Of a stretch of DNA of 64,000 nucleotides, positions 21,610 through 29,355 are shown piece by piece (position 1 is the first letter of the stretch; each line of letters opens with the position of its first letter). The position numbers and the translations under genes are program-made. A model generated the notes under the pieces. It was not told the origin of the DNA. It saw only the letters and a list, made by a program, of their open reading frames with translations, and made no database searches. This stretch comes from Spizellomyces punctatus DAOM BR117 (taxonomy: Eukaryota): the NCBI GenBank assembly GCA_000182565.2, contig KQ257453.1; one strand, given 5' to 3'.

Positions 21610-23988
21610 ATGTCGATAGAGATTGAGTCCTCAGAGTACGTTTCTTTGGCTAGCTTGTATTCATATGGTTATTGGAATCATTCTGTATGCATACATGGCC
21701 ATCGCTGACGTATTTTATCCTGATAACAGCGTGATTCGGCTGATACAGCAGTTCCTAAAGGAAAATAATTTACTGCGTACTCTCCAAACTTTACAGGTTT
21801 GTAGCGACCATGGCGTCCTTCCCTCGCCCTGTATATTAAGGAACTTGCAAATCTGCCGTTAGGAAGAAACGACAGTAGCACTCAATACTGTTGATAGTGT
21901 TGAGGCCTTCATCACAGATATCCACAATGGTCGTTGGGATATCGTCCTTAAAACTATATCACAATTGAAGTTGCCCCAGAAGAAGCTGGTGGATCTTTAT
22001 GAACAGGTACGAACGATCTCACTTCCTCTGTTTGCCAGGGGTGACATGAGTCTAATCTTCGAGAAACGGTATAGATTGTAATAGAGCTCATAGAAATGAG
22101 GGAACTCGGTGCGGCGAGATCCCTGCTCCGACAGACAGATCCCATGCAATTCTTGAAAGAGCATTATACAGAACGGTATCTTCATCTGGAGCACTTGTTG
22201 TCGCTGACGTTCTTCGATGAAAAGGAGGTCAGATCTGGTCACGGTTATGCGGGTGATAAGCAGTAGTCGGTAGTTAAATGCTTAAAACCTCTAGGCATAT
22301 CCCAACGATTCTACGAAGCAAAAGCGTCGGCAGATTATTGCTCAAGGTGCTGACGCGCCGATAGCAGATGATTTTGCAAATATGCTGACCATTATTCCCA
22401 GCATTGTCAAGTGAGGTTACCGTGGTGGCCCCATCACGACTTTTGGCGCTTCTCGGCCAATCCCTGAAATGGCAGCATTCGCAAGGACTGTTACCGCCAG
22501 ACGCTGCTTTTGATCTGTTTCGTGGCGCGGCTCCTGTGGCAAAAGCAGAAGAAGACACACCACCGACAGAATGTTATAATTCTATCAAGGTGATCTTCTT
22601 GGATATTCGCTGCTTATTGAAAGCAGAGCAACCTACTTACCCTCGATCAACCGGCTTAGTTTCCCAAGAAGCAACATGCCGAGTGTGTGGTGTTCTCTCC
22701 GGATGGGCAATTCCTGGCGACAGGGAGCGTGGATGGCTTCATCGAGCTATGGAATTACATGACTGGAAAACTTCGAAAGGATTTTAAATACCAGGCGGAG
22801 GTGCGATATTGCGTATTAAAGGCCAATATCCCGTTCTACATCACTAAATGACGTCACTCCTTCTTTAATTTGCCAGGACAATCTAATGGTCATGGAGGAC
22901 GCAGTTCTGACCTTAAATTTCAGTAGAGATAGCGAGCTGCTGGCATCAGGGGCGCAAGATGGAAAGATTAAGGTGAGAAATCCGCATGATTTACGGAGCT
23001 GTATGGTAGATAAGATGCTCATTGAGACGTACGTTCGTAAGGTGTGGCGAGTACAAACAGGACAATGCATACGAAGATTCGCCACCGCGCATACGCAAGG
23101 GGTGACCTCCGTCTGTCTCAGTAAAGATGGCACGCAAGTTCTGAGTTCAAGTTTTGACCAGACAATCAGGTTCGTTGTAAGCGGTCAACACACTGCTCGC
23201 TGCTCGTTGGGAAGTGATGGACAGAAGCTTACCGTGCCGCTAGAATTCACGGACTAAAATCTGGCAAAATGCTCAAAGAATTCCGAGGTCACACGTCCTT
23301 TGTAAACGACGCAGTCTTCTCCCTGGATGGAACGCGGGTCATCAGTGCGAGCAGTGATGGGACCGCAAAGGTAAGCTTTCAAAGATTCACTCGTCGCTGA
23401 ATCTCATTTGATCAAAACCCCGTTCTGTAGATATGGGATACAAAGACTACAGATTGTGTTGTGACCATAACGCTGCATGAGGGGCGGGCCGTTTCAACAG
23501 GTGTACATAGTCCAACAGTTAACCGGATTCTCCTGATGCCTCGAAATATGGATCAATTTGTTCTTTGTAACAAGAGCTCGTACGCTTATGTTCTGAACTT
23601 GCGAGGACAGGTGTGTACATGGTTCTCTCAGCCATACTTTACATGCACTCATATCTGTGACACTTGATAGGTGGTAAAAAGTGTCAGCTCGGGTAAAAAG
23701 GAAGGTGGAGATTTTACAAGTGCCACGCTGTCGGCCAAGGGGGAGTACATCTATTGCGCAAGCGAAGACAATCACATCTACTGCTTTCACTCGGAGAGCG
23801 GAAAAACCGTCACCTCCTTCAAGGTTAGCAAGATGCTACTGTCGTTGGTATTTTATACTGAAAATTTGACTAATGCTGTGATCCTGTAGGCGTCCGAATC
23901 GGAAATTATTGGCCTCTCACATCATCCATTTTCAAACATCATCGCTGTATACGGCGATGATGGGGTGGTGAGCCTTTGGAAACAGTAG
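21610..23988 (+). CDS. SMU1: Spliceosomal WD40 protein SMU1, many introns
   Basis: [87 protein letters not shown]. Confidence 0.96.
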
Positions 23989-24196
23989 TACATTCTTATT
24001 TCGTCACTTTAGTGTAGATGCGACCGTAGTGGTCATGTACATAGTATTTTGATATTGGAGTGCGGAGGGTTCAGTCCATTACGACGTACCCTAGTGTAGG
24101 TAAGGAGTTGGTACTTTTGCCTTCTATGACCAACTCTTGGGGGGGCAATATCTACGAAGATAGACATACACCACCACAGAGGATACACAACCAATT

Positions 24197-27100
24197 CTAT
24201 TTGATATTGGCGTTGGGGATAGATGCTGCCTTGACAACTCCTTTTGCAGTTCTGAATGGAATACCCTTCCAAGTTGCCACGAGGTCGTCTCGTGATGAGA
24301 AGTCCGGCTGCACTGCCTCCCAAACTTTCTTCTTGGGATTTAGTTGCAGCTCAGGTTCTCCTTCGTGGCCCTCGAAATAAACTTTGTCACCAGGTTCGCT
24401 TCCTTCCGGCGGTATCAGGAATTCAACCTTAGTGTGTGCTTCGTCAGAGGCACAGAGAACCATGGCGTGCGACTTGATGCCGCGCATGCTATGCCAAGAG
24501 CAGTTGAGTAATTACTATCGCTTGCTATGCGGCTAGCTGAAACATACCTGACAGGTTTCAGGTTTCTCACAATAAGAACCAGTTTCCCCCGGAGTTCATC
24601 TTCAGTCATGAATTTTACCAAACCGCTTACAACCTCGCGTGGTTTTTCTTCTCCACAATCAATCTGCTCAACGTAAAGGGTGTCCGCGTCGGGATGCTTC
24701 TTCACGTCAAGGATGCGGCCAACACAGATGTCCACCTTGGCAATCAATGATGCTGTGAAGAGAAATTGGAAATTCAGAACCATGTAGATTCCTCAACGAA
24801 GGAAGCTTGATGTAGCGGCTGTACCTTCAGTAGTAGCTGGCGCAGTATGAGCGACCTTATCCTTCTTGTCGGCCTTTTTGTCGTCACTCGGCTCAGAGGA
24901 CACCGAGGACACCGCCACTTTTGGTGCACTCTTTTTCACCTTCCCATTTTCCTAAGAATGACAATGTTGGCACATATTTTTGCATTTCCTGATGACTTTA
25001 TATGCTCACCTCAGCATTAGCACCATATACGTTCTTCACCGGGTACATTTTGCTGACGGACGCAGGATCGATGTTCAGAGAGTCGTCATAAATTGGCTTA
25101 ACTTCGTACATTTTGATAGAGTTTGGTGAGCCCCTTCCGTCGGCCTTCCCATTCTTCTTTTTGCCCTCTTTCTTCGCATCCTTTTTAGATTCACGCCCTC
25201 TACTGCCTTTTCCGGAATTCGGGTCTTGCGTATCCGCTTTCGATTGCAGAGAAGCGGATTTACCATCCGGAACGTAGATGAGATGAATATGCTTGTCGGG
25301 TTTGGAGGCATCCCAAGGTTGATCGCATATGTAATATCCCCTTCGCTCCAGTTGAATGTATTCGCCCTTTTTCACGTTTCGAAGGTTGGCATCTCCGAGC
25401 GCTTCAGTCTGCAAGTGACAACTATGAAGCCTACTCTTCGAAGGTACAATGCTGATCCGATGTCCTTACCTGGAATTCGGACACGGGAGTCACAAAATCC
25501 TTCACATTGTCCTCTTCCTCCAACTTCTTCTTCGTGATCAAGTAATCGAAGTCGTGGAGCATGACATTAACAGGTGTACTCTCTAACTTTCCAGTTGCTG
25601 CCCGAGATAGCCAAGTCAGCTTCTTCTTTGTCTTCTTAAAATCGCCGTCAAGGTTGAGCTTGATTTTGATGAGCTCGATGTGGGATCCATCTGCGGACTT
25701 TGTGATGTCCTCAACGATTACATTTCCCCAGTCCATGAAAGTGACCTGCACAGAAGATTAATAATGTTTACTCTTCACCTTCTATGCTATCCCTTCTCAC
25801 CTCTTCACCGACTTCCAATGCCTTCGCGTCATCAAAGGCGAGGCAGAGCTCGCCAGAGAAGGTGGTGAGTTTTGTTCCCACATCCGGATTCTTCTTGTGC
25901 TTGGGCATCTCTTTGGTGTGGGGTTCAACAGTTTCCCCTACAACATTTACGGGTGTACTGATAGAGAGATATGAGTAAAAGAATGCGTGCTAAGCGAGAT
26001 AGATAGGTGCATACATGTTTTTGAGATCCAAAGCAGTATGTCTTGGTGCGATGGGATCAATGACCTTCTTGTTCAAAGCCCAAATTTTATCCCACTCAAG
26101 ATCGAGATTCTTTTGAGAAGCTCCCTGCATAAGAATGTATTGCCGGAGTGCCTCAATCGTCATACCACGTCGACGAATGCCTCTGATGGTTGGGAAACGT
26201 GGGTCGTCCCATCCGCTCACGAGACCCTCGTTGACGAACCATGTCAATTTGCGCTTAGACAAGAGAGTATACACGAAATTGATACGACTGAGAGCGTGCT
26301 TGTTAGATCTTAATCATTGATTTCACACAACTAACTCACTCACCTGTAATCCCAAATGTGCACCCATCGCAAATTCAGCGTCTTCAGTACCCATTCGTAC
26401 TGTGGGTTGCGGTCACGGTACTCATTGGTACGCAGGGCATGCGTTACACCTTCAATGGAGTCGACAACGGGACACGCGAAGTCGTAAGTTGGATAGATTT
26501 TCCACTTATCACCAGTTCGATGATGTGGGATAAGGTTACAGCGGTATAGCGTAGGGTCCCGAAGCGCCTTATTCTTATTCTTCATGTCCATTTTAGCACG
26601 CAGGCAACATTTTAACCCCTAGAGGAATGGGACACAGGTCAACATCTTGCTGTTGATCACGTGAGCTCTATTGGTACTCACAAACTCGGTGCCATTTTTC
26701 ATCTCGTCAAATCGCCTCAGATTTTCCTCCACCGATAGATCCCGGTTCTTCGATTCCTTTCCTTCAAAGCGCTCAGCCCGCATCTAATTGAATTGTCAAT
26801 GAGAGAGACATCTGACTATGAAAGTCTCCAATCCAACGCTTACAGTATCAACATCCGTGTCATCCACATAGGCCTTCCCGAGTTTGATGAGATCAATGGC
26901 GTACTTGTAGATGGTGTCGAAACTATCTGAGGTGTATGTAATGACATCCCCTTTAACACCGATCAGCAACAGGTCCTCCTTAATCGACTCTTCAAATTCG
27001 CTCTTATTTGGCATTAAGTCATTAAACCTGCGTTTGCTCATAGGGAGAGAGTAAAACACATACCTTCTCCTTGCTTGGATTTGTGTCATCAAAACGAACG

Positions 27101-27279
27101 ATAAGTTTGCCTTCGTAAAGGCGAGCGAAATAGTCGTTCAACAAGGCAGCTTTGGCGTGACCGATGTGGAGGTAGCCACTTGGTTCGGGAGGAAATCGCG
27201 TTACAACTTGGCCACGCACTACATCTTTGAGGCCAATATCGAACGAGCCTTGATCCTTTCCAACTGCTTTGGCGGCCAT
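24197..27279 (-). CDS. GUS1: Cytosolic glutamyl-tRNA synthetase with a fused C-terminal Arc1/EMAPII-like tRNA-binding (OB) domain
   Basis: [62 protein letters not shown]. In-frame introns then lead to [59 protein letters not shown]. Confidence 0.92.
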
Positions 27280-27478
27280 GTTGGGAATTCTAGAGTAATT
27301 CTGCAACAATTTACGATTAGCTCAGGTCAAAAAAGTGGGTGAGTCACACGCACAAATGCAGTTCCAATCACGATTCGAACCCTGTCCGAACGGGTCTGTC
27401 ACGTGCTGTCCGAATTGCCTGTTGCGTCCCAGCAATCTTCCAAGGTCTCCCCAGCGAACATTCTCCTGCAACAACATA

Positions 27479-29355
27479 ATGAAACGCACCAGAGAAGAGA
27501 GCTTGCCGCCCGTTAATACAGATGTATATGTTGACGACTGCTCCCACCAGAATAGAAGGCTGCGACCCGAACCCGCACCAAATTCCATTTCCTCACCACC
27601 TGCGCGGGACCTGACACCGACTCTAGCTGAGAAACCACAACCTCTACCACCTGGAAAAGATGAAATTCTGAGTTCGCTCAGACTGAGACGGATAGTCAGA
27701 GAAAACCATGGTAGCTGCATCAACCAATGTGTATTTTTTCCTTCAACAAGTACGGTTGCAAGTGAGCAGGATGCAGGGACAGCAAATAATGTACTGGCAA
27801 CAATTGGAGGACCACAAGTAAATAGTTTGCCATTCTCTTTGCGTATCGCTTTTCTTCAAAACATACTAACTAGCATTATGTGTGTAGGCAAATTTCTATG
27901 ATAATGAACACTGCGGCGATCATCTAGATATCATGTCGCATTTTGTGGTCAATGGAGTGGGATACTGCAAGGACGCAGAGGAATCGCCAACCGAGGTAGA
28001 GTCAAAAGTCCTTTATATGATTAATAACGGCAACCCGAGCACTTACATGGCATTAGACACCAGAACTACTAACGTGCTGCTGGCTTCATGTGGATCAAGA
28101 CGCTGTCCTAGCCGCCGCTGGAACTGACAGTGACATCCACATACTGAGCGTGACCCGCTCCGAGGAAATTGCCAGACTGAAAGGTCATACAGGTACGTAC
28201 GTCAGATCTTCACTTCTCTCGTTGTCTTTGTTTAATGTATATATATATGCCAATTCATCATCTTGAACAGATCGCATCCTTGACCTCCAACCACATCCCA
28301 CCGACGTAAATCTGCTCCTATCCGTTAGCGATGACGGAAACGTCAAGTTATGGCATGTGCGGGCAAAAAAGTGTTTATGCGTGTACTTCGTCAAGGCCAC
28401 TGCTGCTGTATGTCTTTTATTATGTTCATCATCAGTCCTCCAACGCTCATAGCGTCCTCCTGCACTAGGCCTTTCACCCAAACGGAATGTCCTTCTTGAC
28501 GTCAAGCTCCAAAGGTGTGGTGGTAGACTGGGAGATTCCTGAAGACCTGCTCCACTTGTCCGAGAATGAAGCTATAGCGGCTCCAGTGGAACACATTGAC
28601 GAGGGGCAACAGGTTGTTTGGAGTGATCAATTGCATGGAAATAATTATATCGGTAGACTTGTGAAAGCGTTGAAATCAATCGTGGGCATCTCCTGAACCT
28701 TTATTGACTAGACTGCATACGATATGTGGATGAAAAGGTCTTATCGAAGTCTGTTAATGGCAAGGTTGTTTTCTGGGACCCAATATCTGCAGAGGTGGGT
28801 ATCTGAACATCCGCAGATTTAACCTGCTGATAGTAAACTTACACGGTTACTATGGTCAGATTATCCATTCTTTCACAATAAAAGGAAGTGGTGGTAGCAA
28901 CTACTGTCGTTTCGATGTGAGGTTGGTAACCGATTGAAGCTAGGTGCGCGCGGTCCGCGATTGCAGTATTAACCTACGTCATGGCAGCTCCTGCGGACAA
29001 TATTTTTGCATCGGGAACCCATCAGGCAACGTTTTTATCTATAATCTAGCTCAGGGAGAGCTCATATCAACGTTAGACCATTCGAGGTCAACCAAAACCG
29101 TCCGTTGTTGTGCATTTTCTCACGACTGCCGGTGAGTTGTCAGACACCCTTGCCCTGCGGTGATTGAACTACGCTAATAATCCGCCGACAGCAACATTAT
29201 ATACGTCGGGGATGACGCATTAATATGGAGGTAACGCGCCAAAACACAAATCAACATTTGTATAAGCTGGCAACTAATGAGACCCTAATTGTGTCAGATT
29301 TGATTACATCAGTGAAGAAATGATACAAGAGTGGAACGACGAAGAGTCTGACTGA
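27479..29355 (+). CDS. EED/ESC/FIE-like WD40 protein, multi-exon
   Basis: ENHG, LKGH..ILDLQPHP..LLLSVSDDGNVKLW, HGNNYI|DCIRY..LSKS, CIGNPSGNVFIYNL, VRCCAFSHD, VGDDALIWR|FD match the EED-family motif order. LRWD1-like is not excluded. Confidence 0.7.

What the first reader, a model, noticed from the sequence alone, without database searches (positions are those of the whole stretch)
24197..27279. GluRS lacks the GST domain but carries an Arc1/EMAPII tRNA-binding domain in cis
Seen: the catalytic domain starts about 25 aa after the Met, and only 200 bp separate it from the divergent EED-like gene, leaving no room for a ~200-aa GST-like domain. After the anticodon domain, in-frame introns (~24953-25008, ~24754-24825) lead into a full OB-fold EMAPII-type domain. 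Known: yeast GluRS binds Arc1p via GST domains, Arc1p supplies this tRNA-binding domain in trans and also holds GluRS in the cytosol. EMAPII domains are typically found on AIMP1, metazoan TyrRS and some MetRS. Inference: this lineage may have replaced the Arc1-GluRS interaction with a fusion, or this may be a specialised paralog.
Basis: partly seen in the sequence, partly recalled or inferred. Interest (0 to 1): 0.72.

Follow-up and report, generated by a model that had tools for sequence, protein, structure and literature searches.

The report
Chytrid GluRS fused to EMAPII domain
This chytrid fungus's glutamyl-tRNA synthetase gene lacks the usual docking (GST) domain and has, fused to its tail, the tRNA-grabbing domain that yeast supplies on a separate protein; the fusion is real but shared by all chytrid-type fungi, so it is an under-described evolutionary variant, not a one-off.

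Summary
An 11-exon minus-strand gene (27279-24197, ten GT..AG introns of 55-72 nt) encodes an 826-aa protein. It is letter-for-letter identical to the public Spizellomyces punctatus model XP_016610350.1. The order is GluRS catalytic domain from residue 24, two anticodon-binding domains, a ~115-aa disordered lysine-rich linker, then a complete EMAPII-type tRNA-binding domain. No GST domain is present, and none is encoded anywhere in the 64-kb window.

The EMAPII fusion is not special to this lineage. It occurs in GluRS across Chytridiomycota, Monoblepharomycota and Neocallimastigomycota, usually together with the GST domain. In Neocallimastigomycota it also sits on intron-free contigs that hold nothing but the whole ORF. 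The GST loss is a later, apparently single event in one clade of seven sequences around Spizellomyces and Powellomyces. The gene looks like the ordinary cytosolic GluRS, not a special paralog, but the genome could not be searched.

The likely function is a built-in tRNA-capture cofactor, as Arc1p provides separately in yeast. No read spans the three fusion introns. The only strong poly(A) end lies downstream of the EMAPII stop. No searched paper describes the architecture. Interest is moderate.

The parts
27064..27279 (-). Exon 1: start codon at 27279-27277, 23-residue leader, then start of the catalytic domain (HIGH at residues 38-41)
   Evidence: in-frame TGA at 27324-27322 upstream
26844..27002 (-). 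Exon 2, catalytic domain
   Evidence: the intron 26784-26843 downstream of it is skipped in a contig of run X2
26682..26783 (-). Exon 3, catalytic domain
   Evidence: the flanking introns are both skipped in contigs of X1 and X2
26344..26618 (-). Exon 4, catalytic domain
   Evidence: junction 26681/26617 (63 nt skipped) seen in an X1 contig
26015..26287 (-). Exon 5, end of the catalytic domain (LSKRK loop) and start of the anticodon-binding domain
25801..25957 (-). Exon 6, anticodon-binding domain 1 (tRNA-synt_1c_C)
25470..25745 (-). Exon 7, anticodon-binding domains
25229..25408 (-). Exon 8, first part: end of anticodon-binding domain 2 (tRNA-synt_1c_C2), up to about residue 546
25010..25228 (-). 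Exon 8, second part: lysine-rich disordered linker with two MYxVxxVY motifs (25111-25088 and 25048-25025). It ends at the donor GAG|GTGAGC
24952..25009 (-). Intron 8 (58 nt, GTGAGC..TCTTAG). If retained, the protein ends 3 codons later at the TAA at 25000-24998
24825..24951 (-). Exon 9: lysine-rich linker next to the OB fold. It contains no in-frame ATG
24548..24752 (-). Exon 10: first 59 positions of the tRNA_bind OB fold
   Evidence: (E 1.7e-18)
24197..24488 (-). Exon 11: rest of the OB fold, the EMAPII-specific C-terminal subdomain, and the stop at 24199-24197
   Evidence: on the 97%-identical P0001, residues 662-823 align to residues 6-166 of human EMAPII 1EUJ, E 8e-51
24008..24196 (-). 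3' UTR with poly(A) addition at about 24008-24013
   Evidence: 14 and 5 reads of RNA run X9 carry unaligned T runs just before 24008 and 24013 on the + strand. Depth is 134.8 in the bin 24000-24130
27280..27478 (.). About 200-bp interval shared with the divergent WD40 gene. It is the presumed bidirectional promoter and has no room for a GST exon

Best explanation
This is most likely the ordinary cytosolic glutamyl-tRNA synthetase gene of a Spizellomyces chytrid. Whether it is the only copy was not tested.

One mRNA of 11 exons encodes four parts in order: a class I GluRS core (catalytic domain plus two anticodon-binding domains), a ~115-residue disordered lysine-rich linker carrying two conserved MYxVxxVY motifs, and a full EMAPII-type tRNA-binding domain.

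The appended linker plus OB fold has the same make-up as the middle and C-terminal parts of yeast Arc1p. By inference it does in cis what Arc1p does in trans. It captures tRNA (the OB fold holds the 3' CA end, the basic linker holds the body) and raises the local tRNA concentration for the synthetase, which lowers the Km for tRNA-Glu.

The fusion arose once, before the split of Chytridiomycota, Monoblepharomycota and Neocallimastigomycota, on a GluRS that still had its GST-like domain. The GST domain was lost later, once, in the ancestor of the clade holding Spizellomyces, 'Phlyctochytrium' arcticum, Fimicolochytrium, Powellomyces, Thoreauomyces and Geranomyces. By inference, the enzyme in this organism no longer docks into a GST-mediated synthetase complex.
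For: Shown:
- Gene model. All 10 introns are canonical and the single ORF of 826 aa is identical to the independent public model P0245.
- Enzyme identity. TIGR00463 gltX_arch scores 545 bits (cut-off 401.75). glnS scores 371.6, below its cut-off of 425.8. The best solved relative of the 97%-identical ortholog P0001 is a GluRS, 7WRS, E 1.2e-181.
- EMAPII domain. P0001 residues 662-823 align end to end with human EMAPII (E about 1e-50), the TyrRS C-domain 1NTG and Arc1p 4R1J. In the fold of P0245, the GluRS core and residues 662-826 reach pLDDT about 85-95, and residues 547-661 stay below 35.
- Conservation of the fusion. 38 of 120 listed hits carry PF00749+PF01588 and all 31 named ones are chytrid-type fungi. 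Neocallimastigomycota members of the P0035 cluster sit on contigs of 3009-3313 nt that encode 999-1010 aa, which leaves no room for introns or a second gene.
- Linker motif. 44 of 48 fused proteins have 2 or more MYxVxxVY motifs. Among 220 other collected proteins, the only hit outside this family is one chance N-terminal match.
- GST loss. HIGH lies at residues 37-46 in the short forms and at 177-432 in the long ones, with three intermediate models at 103-104. GST_C or Arc1p_N_like hits are found in the 7 long forms scanned, mostly below Pfam's cut-offs, and none in P0001 or P0007. The 7 short rows form one clade with SH-aLRT 99, and Gaertneriomyces, Rhizophlyctis and Borealophlyctis (long forms) lie outside it.
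- RNA. Spliced contigs in X1 and X2 confirm introns 2 and 3, and one X1 contig covers exon 11. Poly(A) tails lie at 24008-24013. Minus-direction depth of 135 there falls to 5.9 by 24393-24523. No comparable 3' peak exists anywhere over the GluRS core, where depth is at most 2.1.

From the literature:
- Arc1p needs both its lysine-rich middle domain and its OB fold to bind tRNA, and the OB fold captures the 3' CA end (PMC11286949: abstract and section 10 read).
- Arc1p stimulates GluRS and MetRS (PMC4394549: passages read).

Inferred:
- The window protein has K727-x-V729-x-M731-R732-x3-S736-x2-M739. This is the same spacing as the Arc1p residues K269, V271, M273, R274, S278 and M281 mutated in that paper. 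The residues are read, and the equivalence is inferred from spacing only.
Against: - No read or contig spans introns 8, 9 or 10. The only raw RNA run looks strongly 3'-biased, and depth is 0 on the gene's strand between 24655 and 25047.
- A small hump of depth 1.5-2.1 at 25179-25440, just upstream of intron 8, could mark a minor transcript end. It could equally be oligo-dT priming on the A-rich lysine codons.
- The own genome is not held. A second, GST-bearing GluRS, an Arc1 homolog or a stand-alone GST partner in this species is therefore not excluded.
- The cofactor role is inferred from homology. No kinetics or binding data exist.
- The structure model shows no contact between the EMAPII domain and the core.
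Confidence: 0.8

Rival explanations
1. Two adjacent genes wrongly merged. GluRS would end at the TAA at 25000-24998, and a small stand-alone EMAPII protein would be made from its own promoter, for example from the ATG at 24783 inside 'intron 9'.
For: No read spans introns 8-10. Strand-matched depth is zero at 24655-25047, and there is a small hump at 25179-25440. A 212-aa stand-alone EMAPII protein is annotated in Caulochytrium (P0143).
Against: Exon 9 continues the frame with no in-frame ATG and with canonical splice sites on both sides. The linker and its motifs are conserved in frame in 44 of 48 family members. Intron-free contigs of 3009-3313 nt encode the whole 999-1010-aa fusion in Neocallimastigomycota. 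The public model and six independently annotated relatives give the same join. In the RNA run, which looks 3'-biased, the GluRS core has no 3' peak of its own. Its depth of at most 2.1 compares with 135 at 24000-24130.
Confidence: 0.04
2. A specialised extra copy. The housekeeping cytosolic GluRS with a GST domain would lie elsewhere in the genome, and this GST-less, EMAPII-bearing copy would serve a side role.
For: The genome could not be searched, so a second copy is not excluded. The first-stage reader raised this possibility.
Against: The GluRS core tree broadly groups related genera together, and the window sits 0.03 substitutions per site from its sister species. Each species name appears once among the named fused rows, apart from two Rhizophlyctis rosea entries. 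In the exhaustive search, the named unfused best hits are Smittium, Diphylleia, Letrouitia, Cryptococcus and Rigifila. None is a chytrid, although only 6 of the 12 unfused representatives looked up carried an organism name. The catalytic motifs are invariant across the 36 aligned fused proteins.
Confidence: 0.08
3. A regulated two-isoform gene. Retention of intron 8 (stop after 3 codons), or polyadenylation near 25000, would yield a plain 623-aa GluRS beside the fused 826-aa form. This would tune how much enzyme carries the tRNA-binding tail.
For: An in-frame TAA lies 3 codons into intron 8. Depth is 1.5-2.1 at 25179-25440, just upstream of it, in the RNA run that looks 3'-biased.
Against: Nine of the 10 introns have in-frame stops, so the stop is not special. 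The hump is about 1-2% of the main 3' peak, and it lies just upstream of an A-rich stretch at about 25150-25195 that could prime oligo-dT. No poly(A) loose end near 25000 was among those shown, although 86 loose ends were not shown.
Confidence: 0.08

Closest known systems
Yeast Arc1p with GluRS and MetRS (Arc1p = GST-like N-domain, lysine-rich middle domain, EMAPII-like OB domain)
   Same: The lysine-rich segment plus EMAPII-type OB fold is the same as in Arc1p (4R1J, E 5.6e-38). In the domain tree the chytrid GluRS EMAPII sits beside the Arc1 EMAPII of Basidiomycota and Smittium, with SH-aLRT 83-91, not decisive. The client enzyme is the same, GluRS.
   Different: Here the module is covalently attached to the GluRS C-terminus instead of being recruited through GST-GST contacts. 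This species' GluRS has no GST domain at all. The linker carries two MYxVxxVY motifs that none of the Arc1 or AIMP1 proteins collected shows at that position; the one match outside the family is a chance N-terminal hit.
MetRS with a C-terminal EMAPII-like domain (plants, nematodes, Plasmodium)
   Same: It is an aaRS with a cis-appended EMAPII domain that acts as a built-in tRNA-binding cofactor. Plant MetRS EMAPII is 47-59% identical to this one (best local alignment, covering about half of the query region). The nematode and Plasmodium cases are from PMC9136112 passages.
   Different: The host enzyme differs (MetRS, class Ia). Many of those MetRS also keep a GST domain. They lack the MY-motif linker.
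Metazoan TyrRS C-terminal EMAPII domain and AIMP1/p43
   Same: The fold and sequence family are the same (1NTG E 2.3e-45; AIMP1 4R3Z E 1.2e-51).
   Different: The host differs. Their cytokine roles are metazoan-specific. Chytridiales also have a TyrRS-EMAPII, but its domain nests inside the chytrid GluRS EMAPII clade, so it is a separate event.
GST-bearing eukaryotic cytosolic GluRS (yeast GUS1 type; chytrid long forms such as Batrachochytrium P0013)
   Same: It is an orthologous catalytic and anticodon-binding core, 58-73% identical to the other aligned fused proteins beyond the sister species.
   Different: The roughly 170-200-residue GST-like N-domain is missing in the window gene and its six closest relatives.
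GluRS-tRNA_bind proteins of protists (Ploeotia vitrea P0287, Streblomastix strix P0329, MMETSP transcripts in the P0276 cluster)
   Same: The domain order is the same, and most have a short N-terminus without a Pfam GST hit.
   Different: They are only 42-48% identical. Their linkers have no MY motifs. Their EMAPII domains fall outside the fungal group in the best tree, although one common clade is not rejected (p-AU 0.27).

Membership tests
Archaeal/eukaryotic-type glutamyl-tRNA synthetase (TIGR00463 gltX_arch; Pfam tRNA-synt_1c + 1c_C + 1c_C2) | The whole-protein score is above the curated GluRS cut-off and the protein is not GlnRS | tested here: met
   gltX_arch 545.2 bits against a cut-off of 401.75. 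glnS 371.6 bits is below its cut-off of 425.8. The NCBI product name 'glutamine-tRNA ligase' is therefore a misnomer.
Archaeal/eukaryotic-type glutamyl-tRNA synthetase (TIGR00463 gltX_arch; Pfam tRNA-synt_1c + 1c_C + 1c_C2) | Class I signature motifs (HIGH and the KMSKS-type loop) | tested here: met
   HIGH is at residues 38-41. LSKRK is at 260-264, with S261, K262, R263 and K264 invariant in the 36 aligned proteins. That LSKRK is the KMSKS equivalent is recalled, not tested.
Archaeal/eukaryotic-type glutamyl-tRNA synthetase (TIGR00463 gltX_arch; Pfam tRNA-synt_1c + 1c_C + 1c_C2) | Two beta-barrel anticodon-binding domains after the catalytic domain | tested here: met
   on the 97%-identical P0001: PF03950 at residues 331-421 (E 1.1e-16) and PF20974 at 437-515 (E 1.9e-12)
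Archaeal/eukaryotic-type glutamyl-tRNA synthetase (TIGR00463 gltX_arch; Pfam tRNA-synt_1c + 1c_C + 1c_C2) | Charges tRNA-Glu with glutamate | not testable with these tools
   This needs an aminoacylation assay.
EMAPII-type tRNA-binding domain (monomeric OB fold plus C-terminal pseudo-dimer subdomain), as opposed to dimeric Trbp111/CsaA | Trbp-type OB fold (Pfam tRNA_bind) | tested here: met
   PF01588 covers profile positions 1-96 of 96, E 2.8e-30 (on P0001)
EMAPII-type tRNA-binding domain (monomeric OB fold plus C-terminal pseudo-dimer subdomain), as opposed to dimeric Trbp111/CsaA | An extra ~60-residue C-terminal subdomain after the OB fold | tested here: met
   P0001 residues 662-823 align with residues 6-166 of the 166-aa human EMAPII, whereas Trbp111 (1PYB) aligns only to 663-759. 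The region is modelled at pLDDT about 83-95.
EMAPII-type tRNA-binding domain (monomeric OB fold plus C-terminal pseudo-dimer subdomain), as opposed to dimeric Trbp111/CsaA | Residues that hold the tRNA 3' CA end | tested here: inconclusive
   The K-x-V-x-M-R-x3-S-x2-M spacing of the Arc1p residues named in PMC11286949 (Fig. 4 legend) is present at residues 727-739. It is invariant or at least 90% conserved at K727, M731, R732, S736 and M739. No residue-by-residue alignment to Arc1p was made.
Arc1p/AIMP1-type scaffold protein | N-terminal GST-like (or leucine-zipper) protein-interaction domain with no catalytic domain | tested here: not met
   There is no GST or Arc1p_N_like hit in P0001, and the protein has a full synthetase core. 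It is not a member, although its C-terminal two-thirds of the Arc1p plan (basic linker plus EMAPII) are present.
GST-bearing cytosolic GluRS able to join a GST-mediated multi-synthetase complex | [quoted passage not shown] | tested here: not met
   The catalytic domain starts at residue 24. tblastn with 15 GST N-termini finds nothing in the window. The same short start occurs in 6 related species. The 7 long-form orthologs scanned do have weak GST_C or Arc1p_N_like hits, mostly below Pfam's cut-offs.

The most novel reading that the evidence does not exclude
In the chytrid-type fungi the Arc1p/AIMP1 scaffold was taken apart. Its basic linker plus EMAPII module was welded onto GluRS, together with a new, strictly conserved pair of MYxVxxVY motifs that act as a functional element of their own (a docking or tRNA-handling site). 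The module was later copied from GluRS onto TyrRS in Chytridiales. In the Spizellomyces-Powellomyces clade the last GST link was dropped. This would leave a fungus whose GluRS works entirely outside any GST-held synthetase complex, and probably without an Arc1 protein at all.
Probability: 0.3. Interest if true: 0.6.

Novelty: new variant of a known kind. Interest (0 to 1): 0.42.

Why it matters
Arc1p is the textbook case of a trans-acting tRNA-binding cofactor that also controls where GluRS and MetRS sit in the cell. Chytrid-type fungi offer a natural experiment in three states: GST plus EMAPII on one GluRS chain (most chytrids), EMAPII only (this gene), and GST only with Arc1 in trans (Dikarya, Mucoromycota, Smittium).

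Comparing the three could show what the covalent link buys in tRNA affinity. It could show whether the GST contact is needed once the cofactor is in cis. It could also show how synthetase complexes are built and dismantled in evolution.

The finding also corrects a database name, since the protein is GluRS and not GlnRS. It flags a conserved linker motif of unknown role. It is a modest evolutionary and biochemical point, not a new kind of system.

Tried and rejected
- **Own genome.** The search for PF01588 in the window's genome failed because no genome is held. Arc1, a second GluRS and the MetRS architecture in this species could therefore not be looked for.
- **Sequencing runs.** No RNA holder listed. 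Only a same-species raw RNA run (X9) and two small-share contig runs guessed to be RNA (X1, X2) were offered.
- **Read laying.** The run gave no joint for introns 8, 9 or 10 and none for the other introns except 2 and 3, so the fusion junctions remain unseen in reads. The X3 contigs are unspliced, so genomic.
- **Upstream open frame.** tblastn alignments of two N-termini (P0022, P0029) ran upstream of the ATG to about 27495 at 28% identity (E 0.011 and 2.4e-4). They cross the TGA at 27324-27322 and lie antisense to the first exon of the WD40 gene. I read the 177-codon open frame there (27322-27855) as an antisense artefact, not a GST remnant.
- **Chytrid Arc1.** Among the 120 best short EMAPII proteins (of 566 passing), none was a named chytrid with Arc1p_N_like plus tRNA_bind. 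This is too shallow to claim absence.
- **Atlas look-up.** A search with a Mucor Arc1 gave clusters whose commonest phyla were Chlorophyta, Bacillariophyta, Zoopagomycota and Streptophyta, which says nothing about chytrids.
- **Motif scan.** The first scan used a wrong spacing and found nothing. It was corrected.
- **One clade for all GluRS-attached EMAPII domains, protists included.** The tree with them held together was not rejected (p-AU 0.27), so independent origins are suggested but not shown.
- **Supplements.** Supplementary files of papers were not opened.
Full report
**What is in the sequence**

On the minus strand between 27279 and 24197 lies an 11-exon gene. I read the exons from the sequence and joined them by coordinates in a script. 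The CDS is 2481 nt with one terminal stop and gives 826 aa. All ten introns are GT..AG and 55-72 nt long, and nine of them carry an in-frame stop if retained.

A third intron, 24547-24489, splits the OB fold.

The translation is identical, letter for letter, to protein P0245. Its sources name P0245 as XP_016610350.1 / KND02311.1 of Spizellomyces punctatus DAOM BR117. It is 97% identical to the 823-aa model of Spizellomyces sp. 'palustris', P0001.

**Domains**

Exon-by-exon Pfam scans and scans of the near-identical P0001 give this layout:
- tRNA-synt_1c at residues 24-328 (E 2e-111)
- tRNA-synt_1c_C at 331-421
- tRNA-synt_1c_C2 at 437-515
- tRNA_bind at 667-762 (E 2.8e-30)
- no GST-type hit

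NCBIfam calls the protein GluRS (gltX_arch 545 bits, cut-off 401.75) and not GlnRS (371.6 bits, cut-off 425.8). The NCBI product name 'glutamine-tRNA ligase' is therefore wrong.

Against solved structures, the core of P0001 best matches a GluRS (7WRS, E 1.2e-181). Its residues 662-823 align with residues 6-166 of the 166-residue human EMAPII (E 8e-51). They also match the TyrRS C-domain 1NTG and yeast Arc1p 4R1J, while Trbp111 covers only the OB part.

An AlphaFold model built on a 36-sequence alignment folds the core and residues 662-826 with confidence. It leaves residues 1-14 and 547-661 disordered.

**No GST domain**

- The catalytic domain starts 23 residues after the Met.
- An in-frame TGA lies 14 codons upstream of the ATG.
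- The first plausible ATG of the divergent + strand WD40 gene is at 27479.
- tblastn with the GST-bearing N-termini of 15 related GluRS against the whole 64-kb window gave nothing beyond alignments that end in exon 1.
- Two of those alignments trail upstream at 28% identity, across the stop, into a 177-codon open frame that is antisense to the neighbour's first exon. I read that frame as an artefact.

**Is the fusion one gene?**

Evidence for one gene:
- Exon 9 has no in-frame ATG and canonical splice sites on both sides.
- The public model and six independently annotated relatives make the same join.
- The linker is conserved in frame across the family.
- In the Neocallimastigomycota cluster of P0035, proteins of 999-1010 aa sit on contigs of 3009-3313 nt. 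This leaves no room for introns or a second gene.

RNA evidence for this species is partial:
- Contigs of runs X1 and X2 are spliced exactly at introns 3 and 2, and one covers exon 11.
- The raw RNA run X9 looks 3'-biased. Poly(A) tails lie at 24008-24013.
- Depth on the gene's direction is 134.8, 79.6, 41.2, 5.9 and 1.3 in successive 131-nt bins. It is then zero up to 25047.
- Depth is at most 2.1 anywhere over the GluRS core.
- No read spans introns 8-10.

If GluRS had its own 3' end near 25000, a run like this should show a peak there. Only a hump of 1.5-2.1 is seen at 25179-25440, just upstream of an A-rich stretch of lysine codons.

**How widespread is it?**

I searched with residues 487-823 of P0001. 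Of the 120 listed proteins, 38 carry PF00749+PF01588, and 3 more are fragments with the anticodon domain plus PF01588. All 31 named ones are chytrid-type fungi. They include Batrachochytrium, Rhizophlyctis, Polychytrium, Chytriomyces, Nowakowskiella and Hyaloraphidium.

The unnamed P0035 clusters with Neocallimastix, Anaeromyces and Piromyces. NCBI taxonomy places these hosts in three phyla of the clade chytridiomyceta.

Most are about 1000 aa with HIGH at residues 177-254 (one model at 432), and three have it at 103-104. The 7 long forms scanned have weak GST_C or Arc1p_N_like hits in the N-terminal part, mostly below Pfam's cut-offs.

An exhaustive phmmer run with P0245 over 1.84 billion representatives collapses the fungal fusions into a few clusters. 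It also reveals GluRS-tRNA_bind proteins of 42-48% identity from protists: Ploeotia vitrea, Streblomastix strix, MMETSP transcripts and unnamed records. Those proteins lack the fungal linker motifs. Their EMAPII domains fall outside the fungal group in the best tree, but a common clade is not rejected (p-AU 0.27).

**The GST loss**

In a tree of the GluRS core (35 rows, quick IQ-TREE), the seven short forms make one clade with SH-aLRT 99. They are the window, S. 'palustris', Phlyctochytrium arcticum, Fimicolochytrium, Powellomyces, Thoreauomyces and Geranomyces. Gaertneriomyces (988 aa, GST_C E 1.1e-05), Rhizophlyctis and Borealophlyctis lie just outside it.

One loss is enough to explain this. 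Two rows without a HIGH match (P0018, P0039) were left out of the tree.

**Origin of the module**

In domain trees the chytrid GluRS EMAPII groups with the Arc1 EMAPII of Basidiomycota and Smittium. The support is SH-aLRT 83-91, suggestive only.

The linker holds two MYxVxxVY motifs 19-21 residues apart. They occur twice or more in 44 of 48 fused proteins, once in 3 and not at all in 1. Among 220 other collected proteins they occur only in fragments or members of this family, plus one chance hit. M586, Y587, M607 and Y608 are invariant in the 36-sequence alignment.

Among the 120 best short EMAPII proteins, Arc1-type proteins came from Basidiomycota, Mucoromycota and Smittium. None came from a named chytrid. 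That is a hint of Arc1 absence, not a demonstration.

**Mechanism**

It is shown that the protein has an intact GluRS core and an intact EMAPII domain joined by a basic disordered linker.

The following is established for relatives:
- Arc1p's OB fold captures the tRNA 3' CA end.
- Arc1p needs its lysine-rich middle domain to bind tRNA (PMC11286949: abstract and section 10 read).
- Arc1p stimulates GluRS and MetRS (PMC4394549: passages read).
- EMAPII-like domains on MetRS substitute for the scaffold's domain in nematodes, and perhaps in Plasmodium (PMC9136112: passages read).

By inference, the chytrid tail is a cis tRNA-capture arm that raises affinity for tRNA-Glu. Without a GST domain, the Spizellomyces enzyme would no longer be tethered to other GST-domain proteins.

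**Prior description**

Seven full-text searches found no paper that describes an EMAPII domain on GluRS or treats chytrid synthetase complexes. I also read passages, an abstract or a section in four papers. The library lacks most subscription journals, and supplements were not seen. The architecture is visible in public automatic annotation.

**Verdict**

The evolutionary reading needs correcting: the fusion is old and clade-wide, and the GST loss is local. The paralog idea is unsupported but not excluded. The finding is a new variant of a known kind (synthetases with appended EMAPII domains) and of moderate interest.

Noticed in passing
window 25111-25088 and 25048-25025 (minus strand; residues 586-593 and 607-614): Two MYxVxxVY motifs 21 residues apart lie in the disordered linker. 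The pair is present in 44 of 48 fused GluRS. M and Y are invariant in the 36 aligned proteins. The pair is absent from Arc1, AIMP1, MetRS and TyrRS proteins and from the protist GluRS fusions. Its role is unknown.
   Followed up: partly
proteins P0044-P0047 and P0050 (Chytridiales TyrRS, 517-595 aa): Chytridiales TyrRS also carries a C-terminal EMAPII domain, 61-66% identical to the window's. It nests inside the Chytridiales GluRS EMAPII clade. A tree holding all GluRS EMAPII domains together without TyrRS is rejected (p-AU 0.005; the group was named after seeing the tree). This looks like a copy from GluRS, separate from the metazoan TyrRS fusion.
   Followed up: partly
P0245 = product of window 27279-24197: NCBI names this protein 'glutamine-tRNA ligase' while UniProt calls it a probable glutamate--tRNA ligase. 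The curated HMM cut-offs support GluRS only.
   Followed up: yes
proteins P0276, P0279, P0287, P0307, P0315, P0329, P0366: GluRS-tRNA_bind fusions, mostly with short N-termini and no Pfam GST hit, occur in protists (Ploeotia vitrea, Streblomastix strix, MMETSP transcripts) and in unnamed records. Their linkers are unrelated to the fungal one.
   Followed up: partly
window 27322-27855, minus strand: A 177-codon open frame sits in the same frame as exon 1 and is separated from it by one TGA. It lies antisense to the first exon of the divergent WD40 gene and has no GST similarity. It is probably an antisense-ORF artefact.
   Followed up: partly
window 24000-24261: Reads of the opposite direction (depth 19.9 and 8.7) overlap the GluRS 3' UTR. 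They probably come from the 3' end of the convergent WD40-repeat gene whose last open frames end near 23889, which would mean overlapping 3' UTRs.
   Followed up: no
window 25179-25440: A small strand-matched read hump (depth 1.5-2.1) appears in the RNA run that looks 3'-biased. It lies just upstream of an A-rich run of lysine codons at about 25150-25195. It is either internal oligo-dT priming or a minor transcript end before intron 8.
   Followed up: no
protein P0002 (Phlyctochytrium arcticum): NCBI taxonomy files this species under Chytridiales. Its GluRS groups with Spizellomyces inside the GST-less clade, while P. bullatum groups with Chytridium lagenaria.
   Followed up: no
protein P0143 (Caulochytrium protostelioides, 212 aa): A short stand-alone EMAPII protein is annotated in a chytrid-like fungus. 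It falls on a long branch within the chytrid EMAPII group. It could be a split form or a truncated model.
   Followed up: no
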